NCBI GenBank assembly: GCA_963813535.1
Contig: CAWEZH010000002.1
Span: 352,001 to 416,000 of the forward strand
Length of the DNA stretch: 64,000 nt
DNA from: an uncultured Chloroflexia bacterium
GTDB taxonomy: Bacteria; Chloroflexota; Limnocylindria; Limnocylindrales; CSP1-4
Direction of reading: 5' to 3'
Part shown: positions 19,715-34,955 of the stretch, one piece after another
Numbering within the stretch: position 1 is the first letter of the stretch
Layout: every line of letters begins with the position of its first letter
Position numbers and translations under genes: made by a program
Notes under the pieces: generated by a model
Seen by the model: the letters and a program-made list of their open reading frames with translations, nothing else
Told to the model about the DNA's origin: nothing
Database searches by the model: none

Positions 19715-21457
<1,743 letters not shown>

Positions 21458-21577
21458 ACGCCAAGGCTAGGGGTCGGCTGGTCCGGGCCATAGCCGACCG
21501 GTGGTACCCCCCGTCCACGGCGGTGGTACCGACCCATCCCGAAACCGGCCCGCGACGCGTCGACCGCGATGGCCCGC

Positions 21578-21586
21578 TGCTATACT
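21578..21586 (+). promoter_or_regulatory. Extended -10 promoter (TGc-TATACT) for the pur leader/operon
   Basis: tgctatact at 21578-21586, immediately 5' of the structured region. Confidence 0.65.
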
Positions 21587-21589
21587 CCG

Positions 21590-21771
21590 CCCGTCCTCGA
21601 CCGCAGCGGGTTCGCCCCGCGAACCAGGAGGTCAACGATCGCGCGACTTCGGCGCATCGGCCGTCCCGTGAGGCGGTCGGGCGACCGCCGGACAGCGATC
21701 CGCCGACAGGTCGGCGGCTCGAGACGGGAGACGTATAACCAGGTCCCTGGCATATCGGCCGGGACCTTTTT
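21590..21771 (+). ncRNA. Candidate structured leader RNA (riboswitch/attenuator) or sRNA upstream of purA
   Basis: Closing helix cccgtc(c)tcga/tcgagacggg, inner helix gatcgc/gcgatc, several hairpins including cUUCGg, followed by a U-tailed terminator. Confidence 0.55.
21741..21771 (+). terminator. Intrinsic terminator/attenuator upstream of purA
   Basis: aggtccctggc-atatcg-gccgggacct then T-run to 21771. Confidence 0.75.
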
Positions 21772-21772
21772 A

Positions 21773-21899
21773 GTTGGGCGGCGCTCATGCTCGCCCAGCG
21801 CCGCGTTGCCGCCTGCGCGCACTCGCTCACGCACCTCCAGGTGCGCTCGCTCGCGTGCTCGGCGTCGCCTTGCGCCGGGCGGCCTGAGCGCCGCCTGGC
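21773..21899. repeat. ~127-bp palindromic element (RPE1/MITE-like)
   Basis: Terminal arms gttgggcggcgctca / tgagcgccgcctggc, nested arms cgcccagcgc / gcgccgggcg, apical ctcacgcacctccaggtgcgctc; single copy in window. Confidence 0.55.
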
Positions 21900-21912
21900 G
21901 GGAGTCGAGCTG

Positions 21913-23220
21913 ATGCCCGCGACGGTGATCGTCGGGCTCCAATGGGGCGACGAGGGCAAGGGCAAGACCACCGACTTCCTGGCCGAGCAGACCGCCATGG
22001 TCGTGCGCTACCAGGGGGGCGACAACGCCGGCCACACCGTGGTCCGTGGCGACGAGGTGTTCAAGCTCCGGTTGACCCCGTCCGGCGTCCTCTATCCGCA
22101 CATGACGTCGGTCATCGGCAACGGCGTCGTAGTCAACCCGCTGACCCTCATCGACGAGTTCGACATGCTCACGTCACGGGGTATCGACGTCGGCCGTGTG
22201 CGGGTCAGTCGCAGCGCGCACGTGATCATGCCCTATCACGTGGCCCTGGACCGGGCGAACGAGGCCCGTCTCGGCGGCGCGGCCGTAGGCACGACCGGGC
22301 GTGGGATCGGTCCCACCTACGCCGATCGGGCGTGGCGGCTTGGCCTCCGGATGGAGGACCTCCTCGACGCCGCCGTGCTCCACGAGCGGCTCGAACGCGT
22401 GTTGCCGGACAAGAACCTGCTGCTCGCCGCGATGGACGGCGGCGAGTTCTCCGTGGATGCGCTGGTGGAAGAGGCCCTCGGCTGGGGCGAGCGGCTGCGC
22501 GATCACCTGGACGACACGACCTGGCTCGTCCAGGGCGCACTGGCGCGCGGCGACCAGGTCCTGCTCGAAGGTGCCCAGGGCACGTTGCTCGACCTCGACC
22601 ACGGCAGCTATCCGTTCGTGACCTCGTCGAACCCGGTCGCCGGGGGCGCCTGCACGGGCGGCGGCATCGGCCCGCTCCAGGTCGATGAGGTCATCGGCGT
22701 CATGAAGGCCTACTCGACGCGTGTCGGGTCGGGCCCCTATCCGACCGAGCTCCTCGACGGCATCGGCAAGGGCATCGCCGAGCGCGGCAACGAGTACGGG
22801 ACGGTGACGGGCCGTCCGCGCAGGGTCGGCTGGTTCGATGTCGTCCCGCTGCGGTACGCCGTCGCCGTCAACAGCGTCAGCTCGATCATGCTCAACAAGC
22901 TCGACATCCTGTCGGGCATCGACCGACTGCGCCTGTGCGTCGCCTACGAGATCGACGGGCGCCGCATCGACACGTGGCCGTCGAGCGGCGCCGCTCTCGC
23001 GCGCGCGACGCCGATCTACGACGAGTACCCGGGCTGGTCCGAGCCGATCAACGGCGTGCGGTCGCTGAGCGACCTGCCGGAGAACGCGCGCCGCTACGTG
23101 AGCGCACTCGAGGACCATGCCGGTGTCCCGATCGTGCTGGTCTCGGTCGGCCCCGAGCGGACCCAGACCATCGAGCGCGCATGGCGATCGGTGCGCCAGC
23201 GCCAGGTCGTGCCGGCATGA
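21913..23220 (+). CDS. purA: Adenylosuccinate synthetase
   Basis: GLQWGDEGKGK, GGDNAGHT, GTTGRGIGPTY, EGAQG, GTVTGRPRRVGW. Confidence 0.98.
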   Translation: MPATVIVGLQWGDEGKGKTTDFLAEQTAMVVRYQGGDNAGHTVVRGDEVFKLRLTPSGVLYPHMTSVIGNGVVVNPLTLIDEFDMLTSRGIDVGRVRVSRSAHVIMPYHVALDRANEARLGGAAVGTTGRGIGPTYADRAWRLGLRMEDLLDAAVLHERLERVLPDKNLLLAAMDGGEFSVDALVEEALGWGERLRDHLDDTTWLVQGALARGDQVLLEGAQGTLLDLDHGSYPFVTSSNPVAGGACTGGGIGPLQVDEVIGVMKAYSTRVGSGPYPTELLDGIGKGIAERGNEYGTVTGRPRRVGWFDVVPLRYAVAVNSVSSIMLNKLDILSGIDRLRLCVAYEIDGRRIDTWPSSGAALARATPIYDEYPGWSEPINGVRSLSDLPENARRYVSALEDHAGVPIVLVSVGPERTQTIERAWRSVRQRQVVPA

Positions 23221-31564: not shown

Positions 31565-32715
31565 GGCATCGGGTCGATCCGGGCGGCGGTCTGCGTACTC
31601 CCACGCCGGCGTCGACGTCGATGCCGGCGAACGCGCGGTCGAGCTCATGCGCGAGCACGTCGAATTCGACCCGTCGACCGGAGGTCGTCGGTGGCCTGGG
31701 CGGGTTCGGCGGCGCGTTCGCGATCCCGGACGGCTATCGCGAGCCCTTGCTCATCGCGTCGACCGACGGCGTCGGCACGAAGACGGCCATCGCCGCCGCG
31801 GTCGGGCGGTTCGACACGATCGGCATCGACCTCGTCGCGATGTGCGCCGACGACGTGGTATGCACCGGCGCCGAGCCGCTCGCCTTCCTCGACTACCTGG
31901 CCGTCGGCCACCTCGATCCGGTCGGCGTCGCCGAGCTCGTCGGGAGTGTCGCCGCGGGCTGCCGCGAGGCCGGGGCGGCGCTGGTCGGTGGTGAGACCGC
32001 GGAGCACCCGGGACTCATGGAGGTCGACGAGTTCGACCTGGCGGGCTGCTGCATCGGCGTCGTCGAACGCTCCCGGGTCATCGACGGCTCGGCTGCACGG
32101 TCGGGCGACGTGATCGTCGGCCTCATGGCGAGCGGCCTCCACGCGAACGGCTACTCACTGGTCCGCTCGCTGATCGCCGAATGGGATCTCGATCTCGCCG
32201 ATCCGTACCAGGAGCGCCTCCGGCGGACGCTGGGCGACGTCGCGACCGACCGGGCCATCGCCGAGGCGCCGCACGAGACGATGGCCACGCTCGGCGAGGT
32301 GCTGCTGACCCCGACCCGCATCTATGCGAGGGCGGTGCTGGCCACACGCGAGGCGTTGACCACCGCCGGCCACGACATCCACGGCGCTGCACATATCACC
32401 GGTGGCGGGCTGCCGGGCAACGTGCCGCGGGCGCTCCATGAGGGTCTGGGAGCCCGGCTGGACCCCACGCGCTGGTCGATGCCATCGGTGGAGCGCCTGT
32501 TCGGGGCGTTGGGCGGCCTCGACGACATGGAGCTTCGGGCGACGTTCAACGGCGGGCTGGGGATGGTCCTGATCGTCCCGCCTGCGGCGATCCCGGCTGC
32601 TCTCAAGCGACTGGAACAGGACGGCATGCCCGCGCTCGTCGTCGGCGAGGTGGTCGAGGCCGATGCGCTCGACGGGACGCGCTACGCCGAGGGGCCGCTG
32701 GAGTCCGTGGCGTGA
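31557..32715 (+). CDS. purM: AIR synthase, with an apparent +1 frameshift at ~31665
   Basis: N-terminal AYSHAGVDVDAGERAV in one frame; GGLGGFGG, STDGVGTK, GGETAEHPG, HITGGG in another; deleting one T in gaattcg restores HVESTRRPEV. Confidence 0.9.
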
Positions 32716-34955
32716 GCGACGAGGGTCGGACGGCCAGACCGGCGCGGATCGCGGTAGGCGTGTCCGGGGCCGGCTCCAACCTGCGTGCACTGCACGCCGC
32801 AGCGCAGCGTGCCGAGCTCGGCGGCGCGATCGTCCTGGTCTTCGCCGACCGGGCATGCCCGGCGCTCGAATGGGCCCGCGAGCAGGGGATCGACACCGCG
32901 CTGGTCACTGGCGGCGATGACGACACCCTGGCGGAGACGCTCGCCGGGACGCGACCGGACATGGTCGTGCTCGCCGGGTATATGCGGATCATCGGTCCAC
33001 GCGTGCTGGCCGCCTTCCCGCACCGGATCCTGAACACGCATCCGTCGTTGCTGCCGGCGTTCCCCGGCGCGACCGCGATCCGCGACGCCATCGAGCATGG
33101 CGTGCGTCTGACGGGCGTGACGGTCCACGTCGTCGATGCATCGCTCGACGGCGGCCCGATCGTCGCCCAGGAGGGTGTCCCGGTCCTGGCCGATGACGAC
33201 GAGGCGAGCCTGCGTGACCGGATCCAGGCCGTGGAACACCGATTGCTCCCGCACGTCGTCGCGCTCGTCGCGGCCGACGCCGTCGTCGTGGATCCCGAGG
33301 GTCGCCAGGTCGCCATCGACCTCGACGTGGCGGATCGGGCGGTCCCGACACCGCGCCGCGCGTTGCTCTCCGTATCCGACAAGACCGGTCTCATCGACCT
33401 CGGGCGGGGCCTCGTCGCCCGTGGGTTCGAGCTGGTATCGACCGGCGGCACGGCCCGGGCGCTGCGCGACGCGGGTCTTCCCGTCACGGATGTCGCCGCC
33501 GTCACCGGCAGCCCGGAGATGCTCGACGGACGCGTGAAGACGCTGCATCCGCGCGTGCACGCGGGACTCCTGGCCGACCGGCGCCTGGCCGACCATCGCC
33601 AGCAGCTCCTCGCAACGAGCATCGCCCCATTCGAGCTGGTCGTCGTCAACCTCTATCCGTTCGCAGCCGCGCTCGAACGACCGGGCGTCACGATCGATGC
33701 GCTCATCGAGGAGATCGACATCGGTGGGCCGTCGATGGTCCGAGCGGCGGCGAAGAACCACGCGAACGTGGCGATCGTCACGTCCCCGGCGCGCTACGGG
33801 GCGATCCTCGTCGCGCTCGATTCGCCGGCGGGTGTCGACGACCGCCTGCGCCGAGCGCTGGCGCTCGAGGCGTTCGCCCACACCGCGGCATACGACGCCC
33901 GCATCGCCGCGGAGCTACCCAGCCGGTTGGTCGATGCGGGACTGCTCGATGCGCCCGGCGATCCGTATCCGGCGACGCTGACGATCGCGCTGGAGAAGGT
34001 CGAGGCGCTGCGCTACGGCGAGAACCCGCACCAGCCGGCAGCCCGATATCGGCGGCCGGGGTCGACGCTCGCCGACGGTCCCTTCGGCGTCGAGCGCGGC
34101 CCGATCCAGGGCAAGGCGCTCTCGTACAACAACGTCCTCGATGCGGCCGCCGCGTCGGCCCTCGGCCGTGCGCTGCGCGGGCCCGCGGTCGTGATCGTGA
34201 AGCACACCAACCCGTGCGGGGCGGCCGAGCGGACGACCATCCTCGAGGGATGGGAGGCGGCACTGGAAGCCGACCCGGTCAGCGCCTTCGGCGGGGTCGT
34301 GGCGCTCACCCGCGAGGTCGATCGAGCCGTTGCGGTCGCACTGACCTCGATCTTCCTCGAGATCGTCGTCGCGCCGTCCTATACGCCGGAAGCGCTCGAG
34401 GTCCTGGCCTCGAAGGCCAACCTGCGGGTGCTCGTGGACGAAGCTCTTGCCTCGGATGAGCCGGCGACCGCGGCAGTCTCACCGACGGGCGCGATCCGGA
34501 CCGCCGGCGGGGCGGTGCTGGTTACGGCGCCCGACGTCGTCGCCGATGCCACCACGACGTGGACGTGCGCGACCCGTCGTCCGCCCACCGACGAGGAGCA
34601 GCTCGACCTCGACCTCGCCTGGCGCCTGGTCCGTGGTGTGACGTCGAACGCGATCGTGCTCGTGCGCGAGCGGCGGCTCGTCGGGATGGGCAGCGGGCAG
34701 ACGTCCCGCGTCGATGCCGCACGCCAGGCCGTCGCGAAGGCGCACGCGCTGCTCGGTGCCGGCTCGACGGTCGGGGCGGCCTGTGCGAGCGATGCGTTCT
34801 ACCCATTCGCCGATGCGGTCGACGCCTGCCTCGAGGCGGGTGTGCGCGCATTCATCCAGCCCGGCGGGTCGGTGCGCGATGCAGAGGTGATCGAGACCGT
34901 CGATCGCGTCGACGGGACGATGCTGATCACCGGCACCCGACACTTCCGGCACTGA
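32712..34955 (+). CDS. purH: PurN-PurH fusion (GAR transformylase, IMP cyclohydrolase and AICAR transformylase)
   Basis: VSGAGSNL, LAGYMRI, LNTHPSLLPAFPG, LDGGPI, then RALLSVSDKTG, GRVKTLHP, LRYGENPHQ, KHTNPCG, ASDAFYPF, RHFRH in one ORF. Confidence 0.95.
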   Translation: MSDEGRTARPARIAVGVSGAGSNLRALHAAAQRAELGGAIVLVFADRACPALEWAREQGIDTALVTGGDDDTLAETLAGTRPDMVVLAGYMRIIGPRVLAAFPHRILNTHPSLLPAFPGATAIRDAIEHGVRLTGVTVHVVDASLDGGPIVAQEGVPVLADDDEASLRDRIQAVEHRLLPHVVALVAADAVVVDPEGRQVAIDLDVADRAVPTPRRALLSVSDKTGLIDLGRGLVARGFELVSTGGTARALRDAGLPVTDVAAVTGSPEMLDGRVKTLHPRVHAGLLADRRLADHRQQLLATSIAPFELVVVNLYPFAAALERPGVTIDALIEEIDIGGPSMVRAAAKNHANVAIVTSPARYGAILVALDSPAGVDDRLRRALALEAFAHTAAYDARIAAELPSRLVDAGLLDAPGDPYPATLTIALEKVEALRYGENPHQPAARYRRPGSTLADGPFGVERGPIQGKALSYNNVLDAAAASALGRALRGPAVVIVKHTNPCGAAERTTILEGWEAALEADPVSAFGGVVALTREVDRAVAVALTSIFLEIVVAPSYTPEALEVLASKANLRVLVDEALASDEPATAAVSPTGAIRTAGGAVLVTAPDVVADATTTWTCATRRPPTDEEQLDLDLAWRLVRGVTSNAIVLVRERRLVGMGSGQTSRVDAARQAVAKAHALLGAGSTVGAACASDAFYPFADAVDACLEAGVRAFIQPGGSVRDAEVIETVDRVDGTMLITGTRHFRH

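What the first reader, a model, noticed from the sequence alone, without database searches (positions are those of the whole stretch)
21578..21771. Unrecognised ~180-nt structured leader with terminator ahead of the purine operon: candidate new riboswitch or attenuator
Seen: an extended -10 (TGc-TATACT), then a multibranch fold: closing helix 21590-21600 with 21719-21728; hairpin ggttcgc-ccc-gcgaacc; inner helix gatcgc (21647-21652) with gcgatc (21695-21700) enclosing a cUUCGg hairpin and two mutually exclusive helices that share ggcggtcg; hairpin ccgccga-cagg-tcggcgg. It ends in the only clear U-tailed terminator I noticed in the window, upstream of ten pur genes. AGGAGGUC (21636-21643) could pair with the terminator's GACCUUUU. 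Established: pur operons are often controlled by guanine, PRPP or ZTP riboswitches. This sequence lacks their full consensus, with only a loose echo of ZTP P1/P2. Inference: a novel purine-pathway sensor or variant, or an independent sRNA.
Basis: partly seen in the sequence, partly recalled or inferred. Interest (0 to 1): 0.78.

Follow-up and report, generated by a model that had tools for sequence, protein, structure and literature searches.

The report
Conserved regulatory leader RNA before purA operon
A roughly 180-base structured RNA with its own promoter and a terminator sits directly in front of the purine-synthesis operon in one family of uncultured soil Chloroflexota, matches no catalogued RNA family, and is a good candidate for a new riboswitch-type or protein-dependent attenuator.

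Summary
The element is real. An invariant extended -10 box (21578-21586) is followed by a ~180-nt RNA that ends in a U-tailed terminator (21741-21771), upstream of purA-purD-purB-purC-purS-purQ-purL-purF-purM-purNH.

- **Known families:** no Rfam family matches.
- **Distribution:** a covariance model finds one copy in 100 of 108 genomes of the window's family. It finds none in 42 genomes of the sister family and almost none elsewhere in the class or phylum. Named hits are Chloroflexota / Ca. Limnocylindrales MAGs.
- **Synteny:** 107 of 108 examined copies lie just upstream of purA on the same strand.
- **Structure:** 36 of 37 modelled pairs show double-sided changes.
- **Expression platform:** it varies. 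Most copies have a terminator, and five have none.
- **Sensor:** unknown. The apex of the long hairpin matches the PyrR-binding loop that this genome carries before pyrR and carA. A quarter of members lack that loop.

Verdict: a new, narrowly distributed cis-regulatory leader, most likely an orphan riboswitch, with a PyrR-dependent attenuator as the main rival.

The parts
21578..21586 (+). Extended -10 promoter TGCTATACT; predicted transcription start near G21593
   Evidence: Invariant in 24 of 24 same-genus copies. Sequence upstream of it is not conserved. The same box plus the next bases stands before asd in relatives. TGNTATAMT occurs only 4 times in the 3.28-Mb genome. The start site is inferred, not measured.
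21595..21631 (+). P1 (CCUC 21595-21598 with GAGG 21628-21631), enclosing the variable hairpin H1 (GCGGG 21606-21610 with CCCGC 21616-21620)
   Evidence: Per-sequence folds. P1 pair 26:106 shows U-A in 56, C-G in 13, U-G in 2 and G-C in 1 of 98. All 4 P1 pairs and all 3 H1 pairs have double-sided changes.
21626..21650 (+). Conserved GGAGG box and single-stranded linker J1/3 (CGAUCGCGC at 21636-21644; GCCGUUGCUCGAGG in distant members)
   Evidence: Invariant or nearly invariant columns. UCGC at 21639-21642 is complementary to the loop GUGA at 21668-21671 in 93.9% of cells, but without covariation.
21651..21686 (+). H3, a long hairpin: 5' arm 21651-21665, hexaloop CCGUGA 21666-21671, 3' arm 21672-21686
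   Evidence: 13 pairs, all with double-sided changes; 84-89% of cells are paired. It holds top mutual-information pairs. The apex YC-CNGNGA-GN is present in 74 of 98 copies.
21695..21720 (+). H4, an optional hairpin (core CCGCCGA 21700-21706, loop CAGG, UCGGCGG 21711-21717)
   Evidence: Strongest covariation of the RNA; the core helix has 91.6% of cells paired. It is absent in L020-L023.
21725..21740 (+). Conserved tail CGGGAGA (21725-21731) and GUAUAACC (21733-21740; family consensus GUCUAUCC), running straight into the terminator stem
   Evidence: Nearly invariant columns. The 5' end can also pair with GGGA (87.6% of cells, no covariation).
21741..21771 (+). Intrinsic terminator: stem 21741-21751 with 21758-21767, U-tail 21767-21771
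   Evidence: Consensus scan. Covarying stem pairs. 69 of 98 copies pass a strict hairpin-plus-U-run rule. Most of the others have the same hairpin with an interrupted U-run. Five have no hairpin.
21772..21912 (+). Inserted copy of a dispersed repeat between terminator and purA (hairpin CGCACCU-CC-AGGUGCG at 21830-21845); not part of the leader proper
   Evidence: 20 other copies in the same genome at 72-88% identity, on both strands. Many relatives lack it and have purA 12-40 nt after the U-tail.
21913..23220 (+). purA, first gene of the regulated operon (the ATG at 21787 merely opens an upstream in-frame stretch)
   Evidence: Pfam Adenylsucc_synt, E = 1.8e-169. The purA start aligns at residue 1 in relatives. 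purD follows in 47 of 48 loci with room.

Best explanation
It is the 5' leader of the purA-led purine operon. It acts in cis as a transcription attenuator of the riboswitch type.

1. Transcription starts about 7 nt after an extended -10 box.
2. The first ~140 nt fold into three hairpins: P1/H1, the long H3 and the optional H4. Strongly conserved unpaired strands join them: the GGAGG box, the RUYGC linker, and the tail CGGGAGA..GUCUAUCC.
3. The tail runs directly into an intrinsic terminator.

I infer that the conserved strands and the H3 loop form a sensor for a purine-pathway metabolite. Its state would decide whether the terminator forms, or, in members without a terminator, whether the purA ribosome-binding site is open.

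Shown: the RNA, its structure, its conservation, and its fixed position before purA.
Inferred: the start site, control by read-through, direct ligand binding, the ligand, and the polarity.
For: - No known family matches.
- It is single-copy and family-wide: 112 of 151 genomes with model R1 and 100 of 108 family genomes with R2.
- 89 of 90 copies, plus 18 of 18 divergent copies, lie upstream of purA on the same strand. The one exception simply runs off its contig.
- The U-tail to ATG spacing has median 45 nt and minimum 12 nt. purA must therefore usually be read from the leader's promoter.
- Covariation: 36 of 37 pairs have double-sided changes. The score is 0.282 against 0.124 +/- 0.005 in shuffles (0 of 500 reach it) and 0.03-0.07 for slid partners. 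Mutual-information peaks that were not guided by the structure (computed on the same model-fitted alignment A3) fall on the same helices.
- The sensor part is kept while the expression platform changes. There is a canonical terminator in 69 of 98, and no terminator in 5, where the tail abuts the purA start region.
- The conserved core (box, linker, lower H3, tail) persists in members whose H3 apex is different. That points away from the apex as the only sensor.
Against: - No ligand, transcript end or regulation has been measured.
- No conserved antiterminator partner for the terminator's 5' arm was found. The distribution of best partners resembles a shuffled control.
- The three candidate extra helices show conserved complementarity but no covariation.
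- There is no closing helix around a multi-helix junction, which many riboswitches have.
- The H3 apex looks like a protein (PyrR) site.
- Alignment A3 was fitted to the model, so its pair counts lean towards the model's structure.
- Metatranscriptome contigs gave no usable cover of the leader.
Confidence: 0.5

Rival explanations
1. It is a PyrR-dependent attenuator. PyrR, the pyrimidine-operon RNA-binding regulator, binds the H3 apex and shifts the leader between terminating and read-through folds. UMP/UTP favours PyrR's RNA binding and guanine nucleotides oppose it. Purine synthesis would then be tuned to the pyrimidine/guanine nucleotide ratio. The sensible polarity is that bound PyrR gives read-through.
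For: - The H3 apex GUC-CCGUGA-GGC matches 10 of 14 positions of the B. subtilis consensus ARUCCAGAGAGGYU. That consensus, and GMP antagonism of RNA binding, come from passages of PMC7430163.
- The same YC-CNGNGA-GR hairpin stands in tandem over the ribosome-binding sites of pyrR and carA in this genome. The pyrR gene is confirmed by NF003549, E = 2.7e-75.
- It also stands before pyrR in 11 of 20 relatives by the stem-and-loop rule. I saw look-alike sites in 4 more in the printed sequences.
- 74 of 98 leaders carry the apex.
- pyrR was found in 131 of 150 family genomes.
Against: - 24 of 98 leaders lack the apex. These include g36, g57 and g13. g36 keeps canonical sites before pyrR.
- A sequence profile of 15 pyrR/carA sites does not place the window's H3 among the top 40 genome hits. 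The likeness is therefore limited to the loop and two closing pairs.
- The leader's loop is far more constrained than the PyrR sites. It is CNGUGA in 70 of 74, whereas position 4 varies in the PyrR sites. This fits an RNA-RNA contact with the linker.
- Much conserved sequence lies outside H3.
- RF00515 gives no hit. It also misses this genome's own pyrR leader, so this is uninformative.
- In the one survey read, the PyrR motif is described as controlling pyrimidine metabolism (passages of PMC3766115).
Confidence: 0.25
2. It is an independent small RNA gene that merely sits beside purA. purA is expressed by leak-through or from its own promoter.
For: It has its own strong promoter and, in the window, a strong terminator. 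In the window a 141-nt insert separates it from purA and could carry a promoter.
Against: - 107 of 108 copies directly precede purA on the same strand.
- The spacer is as short as 12 nt.
- Five copies have no terminator.
- The insert is a dispersed repeat that many relatives lack.
- No second copy exists elsewhere in any genome examined.
Confidence: 0.07
3. It is a structured but unregulated 5' UTR. It would serve mRNA stability or processing, or as a constitutive partial terminator that sets the operon's level, with no sensing.
For: No switch helices could be demonstrated.
Against: The invariant unpaired strands and the family-wide sequence conservation are more than stability elements usually show. 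The change of expression platform around a kept core is typical of sensors.
Confidence: 0.13
4. It is a leader-peptide attenuator. The GGAG box serves a 10-codon upstream ORF (TTG ... TGA) whose stop codon lies in the H3 loop.
For: 36 of 98 copies have a TTG 4-14 nt after the box that opens a 10-codon frame. Most of the frames found end at the loop's UGA.
Against: 48 of 98 copies, including the window and its genus, have no start codon there. Conservation is not codon-like. The in-frame stop has a one-in-three chance, given the fixed arm length.
Confidence: 0.03

Closest known systems
Terminator-type riboswitches of purine metabolism (purine/guanine RF00167, ykkC-type PRPP and ppGpp classes under RF00442, ZTP)
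   Same: It is a 5' leader of purine-synthesis genes. A conserved structured sensor part is followed by an intrinsic terminator. The expression platform varies among members.
   Different: No sequence or structure match to any Rfam model. The architecture is three hairpins in series, without a closing P1 around a junction. It is confined to one family of Limnocylindria-type Chloroflexota. The ligand is unknown. That PRPP, ppGpp and ZTP classes exist is recalled. RF00167 and RF00442 are as listed in PMC3766115.
PyrR binding site / pyr attenuators (RF00515)
   Same: The apical hexaloop CNGNGA is closed by C-G and a U-G (or C-A) pair, as in ARUCCAGAGAGGYU. It is identical to the sites before pyrR and carA in the same genome. 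A terminator lies downstream.
   Different: It precedes purA, not pyrimidine genes. The leader is far longer and has conserved strands outside the hairpin. No anti-antiterminator/antiterminator pair is recognisable. A quarter of members lack the loop. Neither RF00515 nor a local site profile hits it.
6S RNA (RF00013)
   Same: Size of about 180 nt, single copy, own promoter, and fixed synteny with a metabolic gene.
   Different: No RF00013 hit on the window or anywhere in the genome. The fold is not a rod with a central bubble. The 5' and 3' ends do not pair.

Membership tests
Any Rfam 15 family (including purine, ZTP, ykkC/PRPP/ppGpp, c-di-GMP, 6S, PyrR) | Score at or above the family's gathering threshold | tested here: not met
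   0 matches in the whole window at gathering. The best E-values are 1-9, to unrelated families, in 21400-21950 and in 21640-21705.
Intrinsic-terminator attenuator / riboswitch expression platform | G+C-rich hairpin plus U-run between promoter and start codon, conserved in relatives | tested here: met
   69 of 98 copies pass a strict rule.
Intrinsic-terminator attenuator / riboswitch expression platform | A mutually exclusive antiterminator that overlaps the terminator's 5' arm | tested here: inconclusive
   No conserved partner; the distribution resembles a shuffled control. The short GGGA:UCCC option is paired in 86.3% of cells, but a slid register reaches 92.6%.
Riboswitch (metabolite-binding RNA) | Direct, selective binding of a small molecule | not testable with these tools
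   Needs in-line probing, ITC or termination assays.
Riboswitch (metabolite-binding RNA) | Conserved structured domain with covariation, fixed upstream of functionally related genes | tested here: met
PyrR binding site | Terminal loop and top of the upper stem matching ARUCCAGAGAGGYU | tested here: met
   The window's 21662-21675 matches 10 of 14 positions. It matches all positions of the local form YC-CNGNGA-GR. This holds for 74 of 98 family members only.
PyrR binding site | Purine-rich internal bulge below the upper stem | tested here: inconclusive
   Not evident in the window. Distant members have GAGGAAGG 5' of the stem. Its importance is cited from passages of PMC7430163.
PyrR binding site | Association with pyrimidine synthesis or uptake genes | tested here: not met
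   It is always upstream of purA.
PyrR binding site | Recognised by a model of bona fide sites | tested here: not met
   RF00515 gives no hit in the genome. An nhmmer profile of 15 local pyrR/carA sites does not list H3 among its top 40 hits.
6S RNA | RF00013 match, or a rod-like fold with a central bubble | tested here: not met
Leader-peptide attenuator | Conserved short ORF with a start codon in all members | tested here: not met
   A start codon is present in 50 of 98 copies and the 10-codon frame in 36 of 98. Both are absent in the window's genus.

The most novel reading that the evidence does not exclude
A new riboswitch class, restricted to a family of uncultured soil Chloroflexota, senses a purine-pathway metabolite for which no riboswitch of this architecture is known. 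Adenine nucleotides, IMP, adenylosuccinate or PRPP are natural guesses, because purA leads the operon. A bolder version is that the same leader also carries a PyrR-type loop. One RNA would then integrate a small-molecule signal with the UMP/GMP-dependent PyrR protein to balance purine against pyrimidine synthesis. That would be the first link of PyrR to purine genes.
Probability: 0.45. Interest if true: 0.78.

Novelty: new member of a known kind. Interest (0 to 1): 0.6.

Why it matters
How de novo purine synthesis is controlled in Chloroflexota is essentially unknown. These Limnocylindria-type bacteria are common in soil but have no cultured representative.

The leader is conserved, supported by covariation and absent from Rfam, and it stands before the whole pur operon. 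That gives a concrete handle on the question that can be tested in vitro. About 140 nt of RNA can be probed with a short list of purine intermediates and with recombinant PyrR.

If it binds a metabolite, it adds a riboswitch class. If it binds PyrR, it extends a textbook pyrimidine regulator to purine genes and gives a physical basis for purine-pyrimidine balancing.

If neither holds, it is still a clean example of a lineage-specific leader whose expression platform was rebuilt several times: terminator, no terminator, and loss in streamlined genomes.

Tried and rejected
- **RNA evidence.** One run search and one lay of four soil or rhizosphere RNA-labelled runs, all kept as contigs, gave next to no cover of 21587-21750. 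They cannot show starts, ends or read-through, so nothing is concluded from them.
- **6S RNA.** No RF00013 hit in the genome, and the fold does not fit.
Neither is supported.
- **A long 9-bp helix between GCGAUCGCGC and GCGCGACGC.** I saw it by eye in the genus consensus. Only 5 of its 9 pairs form in the window, and the 3' side varies without compensation, so I dropped it.
- **Averaged pair probabilities between the 5' end and the tail.** At most 14%.
- **Search for an antiterminator by best duplex.** No conserved partner.
- **A crude ORF-based test of whether the PyrR-type hairpin is confined to non-coding DNA.** It failed because shadow ORFs cover the pyrR and carA leaders, so I did not use it.
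- **Co-variation of the H3 loop with PyrR-site loops across genera.** None seen.
- **Literature.** Five full-text searches found no description of this motif or of PyrR control of purine genes. The terms were purA / riboswitch candidate / Actinobacteria; PyrR with binding-loop terms; PyrR / pyr mRNA / attenuation; Limnocylindria / Ellin6529 / riboswitch; and PyrR / purine biosynthesis / regulon. The library lacks most subscription journals. Supplementary files, which were closed, may hold motif lists. The primary paper on PyrR recognition (Bonner et al. 2001) is not held, so I took the consensus from passages of a review.
- **Earlier notes of this scan.** Nothing.

Full report
**What is in the sequence.**
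- Window 21578-21586 reads TGCTATACT, an extended -10 box.
- About 7 nt further on, at G21593 (an inferred start), begins a G+C-rich stretch.
- That stretch ends in a hairpin (21741-21751 with 21758-21767) followed by UUUUU to 21771.
- This is the only terminator-like site in 20500-23000.
- The 198 nt fold more stably than shuffles: -98.6 against -83.9 +/- 4.2 kcal/mol, z = -3.47.
- Downstream lie purA (ATG at 21913, not the in-frame ATG at 21787), purD, purB, purC, purS, purQ, purL, purF, purM and a purN-purH fusion (Pfam).
- Upstream and divergent lies a GGDEF + HD-GYP gene.

**It is not a catalogued RNA.**
- Rfam 15 gives no match at gathering thresholds in the whole window.
- It gives only chance-level matches (E of 1 or more, to unrelated families) in 21400-21950 and in the long hairpin alone.
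- Neither 6S RNA (RF00013) nor the PyrR element (RF00515) is found anywhere in the genome.

**Conservation and distribution.**
- blastn finds the stretch in 22 of 24 other genomes of the genus and in 0 of 16 genomes of a sister family.
- Model R1, built from 24 copies, finds one full-length copy in 112 of 151 genomes of the family, in 41 of 49 genera.
- Model R2, built from 90 copies, finds it as follows.
  - Order: 100 of 108 family genomes, and 0 of 42 in the sister family of ~1.1-Mb genomes.
  - Class: 42 of 44 in the family. Two strong hits fall in one genus (g57) of another family. Of the four weak hits, the two I fetched are false: one is a tRNA gene and the other an unrelated locus. The other two I did not examine.
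  - Phylum: outside the family, 1 marginal hit (E = 9e-4, not examined) among 147 genomes.
Nearly all are labelled Chloroflexota, Chloroflexia or Candidatus Limnocylindrales/Limnocylindria MAGs. The window therefore comes from that lineage, not from Actinobacteria as the G+C content first suggested.
- The sister family's purA is 68-70% identical but has only a short upstream region that keeps a UCUACCC remnant.
- The other families of the class have a different purA (44-50% identity) and no leader.
- Some tallies include genomes flagged as unpublished: G121, G177, G305, G329 and G355.

**It belongs to purA.**
- Of 90 copies, 89 have the purA start on the same strand just downstream. The 90th runs off its contig after 46 nt, and those bases already read as the start of purA.
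- All 18 further divergent copies also precede purA.
- purD follows purA in 47 of 48 loci with room.
- Where a canonical terminator is recognised (69 of 98 by a strict rule), the distance from the U-run to the ATG has median 45 nt and minimum 12 nt, and 28 copies are at 40 nt or less. In most members, therefore, there is little or no room for a separate purA promoter.
- In the window the distance is 141 nt. This is because a copy of a dispersed repeat, with 20 other copies in the genome, is inserted at 21772-21912.

**The promoter.**
- The box is invariant in the genus, while the sequence upstream of it is not conserved.
- The same box and the next bases precede asd in relatives.
- TGNTATAMT occurs only four times in the genome, against about 14 expected from base composition. 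Three of the four share the following CC..CC bases.

**Structure.** The supported architecture is three hairpins in series.
- P1 pairs CCUC with GAGG of the GGAGG box and encloses a variable hairpin, H1.
- H3 is a long 13-pair hairpin with the hexaloop CCGUGA.
- H4 is optional, and it is missing in four same-genus copies.
- After H4 come a conserved unpaired tail and the terminator.

The support comes from a 98-sequence alignment (A3).
- 36 of the 37 modelled pairs have changes on both sides, and 84.2% of cells are paired.
- The covariation score is 0.282 against 0.124 +/- 0.005 in 500 shuffles, none of which reaches it. Slid partners score 0.03-0.07.
- A mutual-information scan that ignores the structure puts its top pairs in H4, H3, the terminator, H1 and P1.
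- The alignment was fitted to the model, which favours the model. The agreement of the structure-blind scan, run on the same alignment, and the slid controls argue that the helices are real.

The cUUCGg hairpin and the GGCGGUCG/CGACCGCC hairpin are alternatives special to the window and its nearest relative.

**Conserved unpaired strands and possible switches.** The most conserved letters lie outside the helices: the GGAGG box, the linker (CGAUCGCGC, or GCCGUUGCUCGAGG in distant genera), and the tail CGGGAGA..GUCUAUCC that abuts the terminator. Three further contacts are possible in most members, but none shows covariation.
- Linker UYGC with loop GUGA: 93.9% of cells paired.
- The 5' UCCU with the tail GGGA: 87.6%.
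- The tail GGGA with UCCC of the terminator's 5' arm: 86.3%, while a slid register gives 92.6%.

These would allow a relay. In one state the 5' end pairs with the box and the tail holds the terminator arm. In the other the 5' end pairs with the tail and the terminator forms. This is inference only. A direct search for a conserved antiterminator partner found none.

**The expression platform varies.**
- 69 of 98 copies pass a strict terminator rule.
- Most of the other 29 have the same hairpin with an interrupted U-run.
- Five have no hairpin at all: four of genus g16 and one of g47. In them the tail is followed within about 20-70 nt by the purA start.

A kept core with rebuilt platforms is what regulated leaders show.

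**The PyrR lead.**
- The H3 apex GUC-CCGUGA-GGC matches 10 of 14 positions of ARUCCAGAGAGGYU, the consensus of the B. subtilis PyrR-binding loop.
- In that system the terminal loop, the top of the stem and a purine-rich bulge matter. UMP-bound PyrR binds the RNA and GMP antagonises binding (passages of PMC7430163).
- In this genome the same hairpin occurs twice in tandem over the ribosome-binding site of pyrR and twice over that of carA. The pyrR gene is identified by NF003549, E = 2.7e-75.
- Related sites of the form CCUUUAAGGA-CCGGUC-CNGNGA-GGCCGG-GAAGGAGG precede pyrR in 11 of 20 relatives by the rule. Four more look alike in the printed sequences.

Against PyrR as the sensor:
- Only 74 of 98 leaders have the apex. 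Genus g36 replaced it while keeping canonical sites before pyrR.
- The leader's loop is far more constrained than the PyrR sites: CNGUGA in 70 of 74 and CCGUGA in 60.
- A profile of 15 pyrR/carA sites does not rank the window's H3 among its top 40 genome hits.
- The one survey read describes the PyrR motif as controlling pyrimidine metabolism (passages of PMC3766115).

I therefore keep PyrR as the main rival, or as a second input, rather than the leading explanation.

**Other readings.**
- An independent sRNA is unlikely, given the synteny, the short spacers and the members without a terminator.
- A leader peptide is unlikely. A TTG-initiated 10-codon frame ending at the loop's UGA exists in 36 of 98 copies. 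However, 48 of 98, including the window's genus, have no start codon there.
- RNA-labelled public runs gave no usable cover.
- Five literature searches found no description of the motif. Supplements were closed and most subscription journals are not held, so prior listing in a motif catalogue cannot be excluded.

**Verdict.** This is a real, covariation-supported, lineage-specific cis-regulatory leader of the pur operon that is absent from Rfam.
- That it is a cis-acting regulatory leader I hold at about 0.85.
- That it senses a small molecule directly I hold at about 0.5.
- That PyrR or another protein is the sensor I hold at about 0.25.

It is a new member of a known kind of element.

Noticed in passing
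window 21772-21912: The spacer between the terminator and purA is a copy of a dispersed repeat of about 70-110 nt. It carries the hairpin CGCACCU-CC-AGGUGCG (21830-21845). There are 20 other copies in the same genome at 72-88% identity, on both strands. Many short contigs of four soil or rhizosphere RNA-labelled runs also match 21800-21873 and then run on unlike it.
   Followed up: partly
L148:831-894 (-) and L149:1046-1109 (-), own genome outside the window: Tandem hairpins with CNGUGA loops overlap the ribosome-binding sites of pyrR and carA. These are probably PyrR translational operators. Rfam's RF00515 does not detect them.
   Followed up: partly
window 21570-21595; L025-L027, L029; own genome C2:551093 and C2:572658: A rare promoter type (GCTGCTATACTCCGNCCGT) is shared by the purA leader, asd and one more locus. 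A like promoter precedes a tRNA gene in another family (L146). TGNTATAMT occurs only 4 times in the genome.
   Followed up: partly
window 19715-21457 (-): The divergent GGDEF + HD-GYP gene upstream of the leader has tblastn matches in 62 of the loci held. One of these comes from a genome flagged as unpublished. This neighbourhood appears to be kept across much of the family. I did not check the position or orientation of the matches within the loci.
   Followed up: partly
window 32712-34955 (+): One ORF carries Formyl_trans_N (purN-like), MGS and AICARFT/IMPCHase (purH) domains. This is an apparent purN-purH fusion at the end of the operon.
   Followed up: no
L128 (G339) and L129 (G313), another family of the class: Genus g57 carries the leader. 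In G313 it comes with a purA of the window's family type (62% identity, against 44-50% for the rest of that family). In the draw, 6 of 7 g57 genomes showed no purA match at E <= 1e-60. This may reflect transfer of leader plus purA.
   Followed up: no
L290-L294 (sister family, ~1.1-Mb genomes): purA has only a ~100-nt upstream region, with a TACGAT box and a UCUACCC remnant of the leader's tail. This looks like loss of the leader in streamlined genomes.
   Followed up: partly
family members such as L063, L094, L097: A 10-codon frame (TTG ... TGA) follows the GGAG box and stops in the H3 loop in 36 of 98 copies. It is absent in the window.
   Followed up: yes
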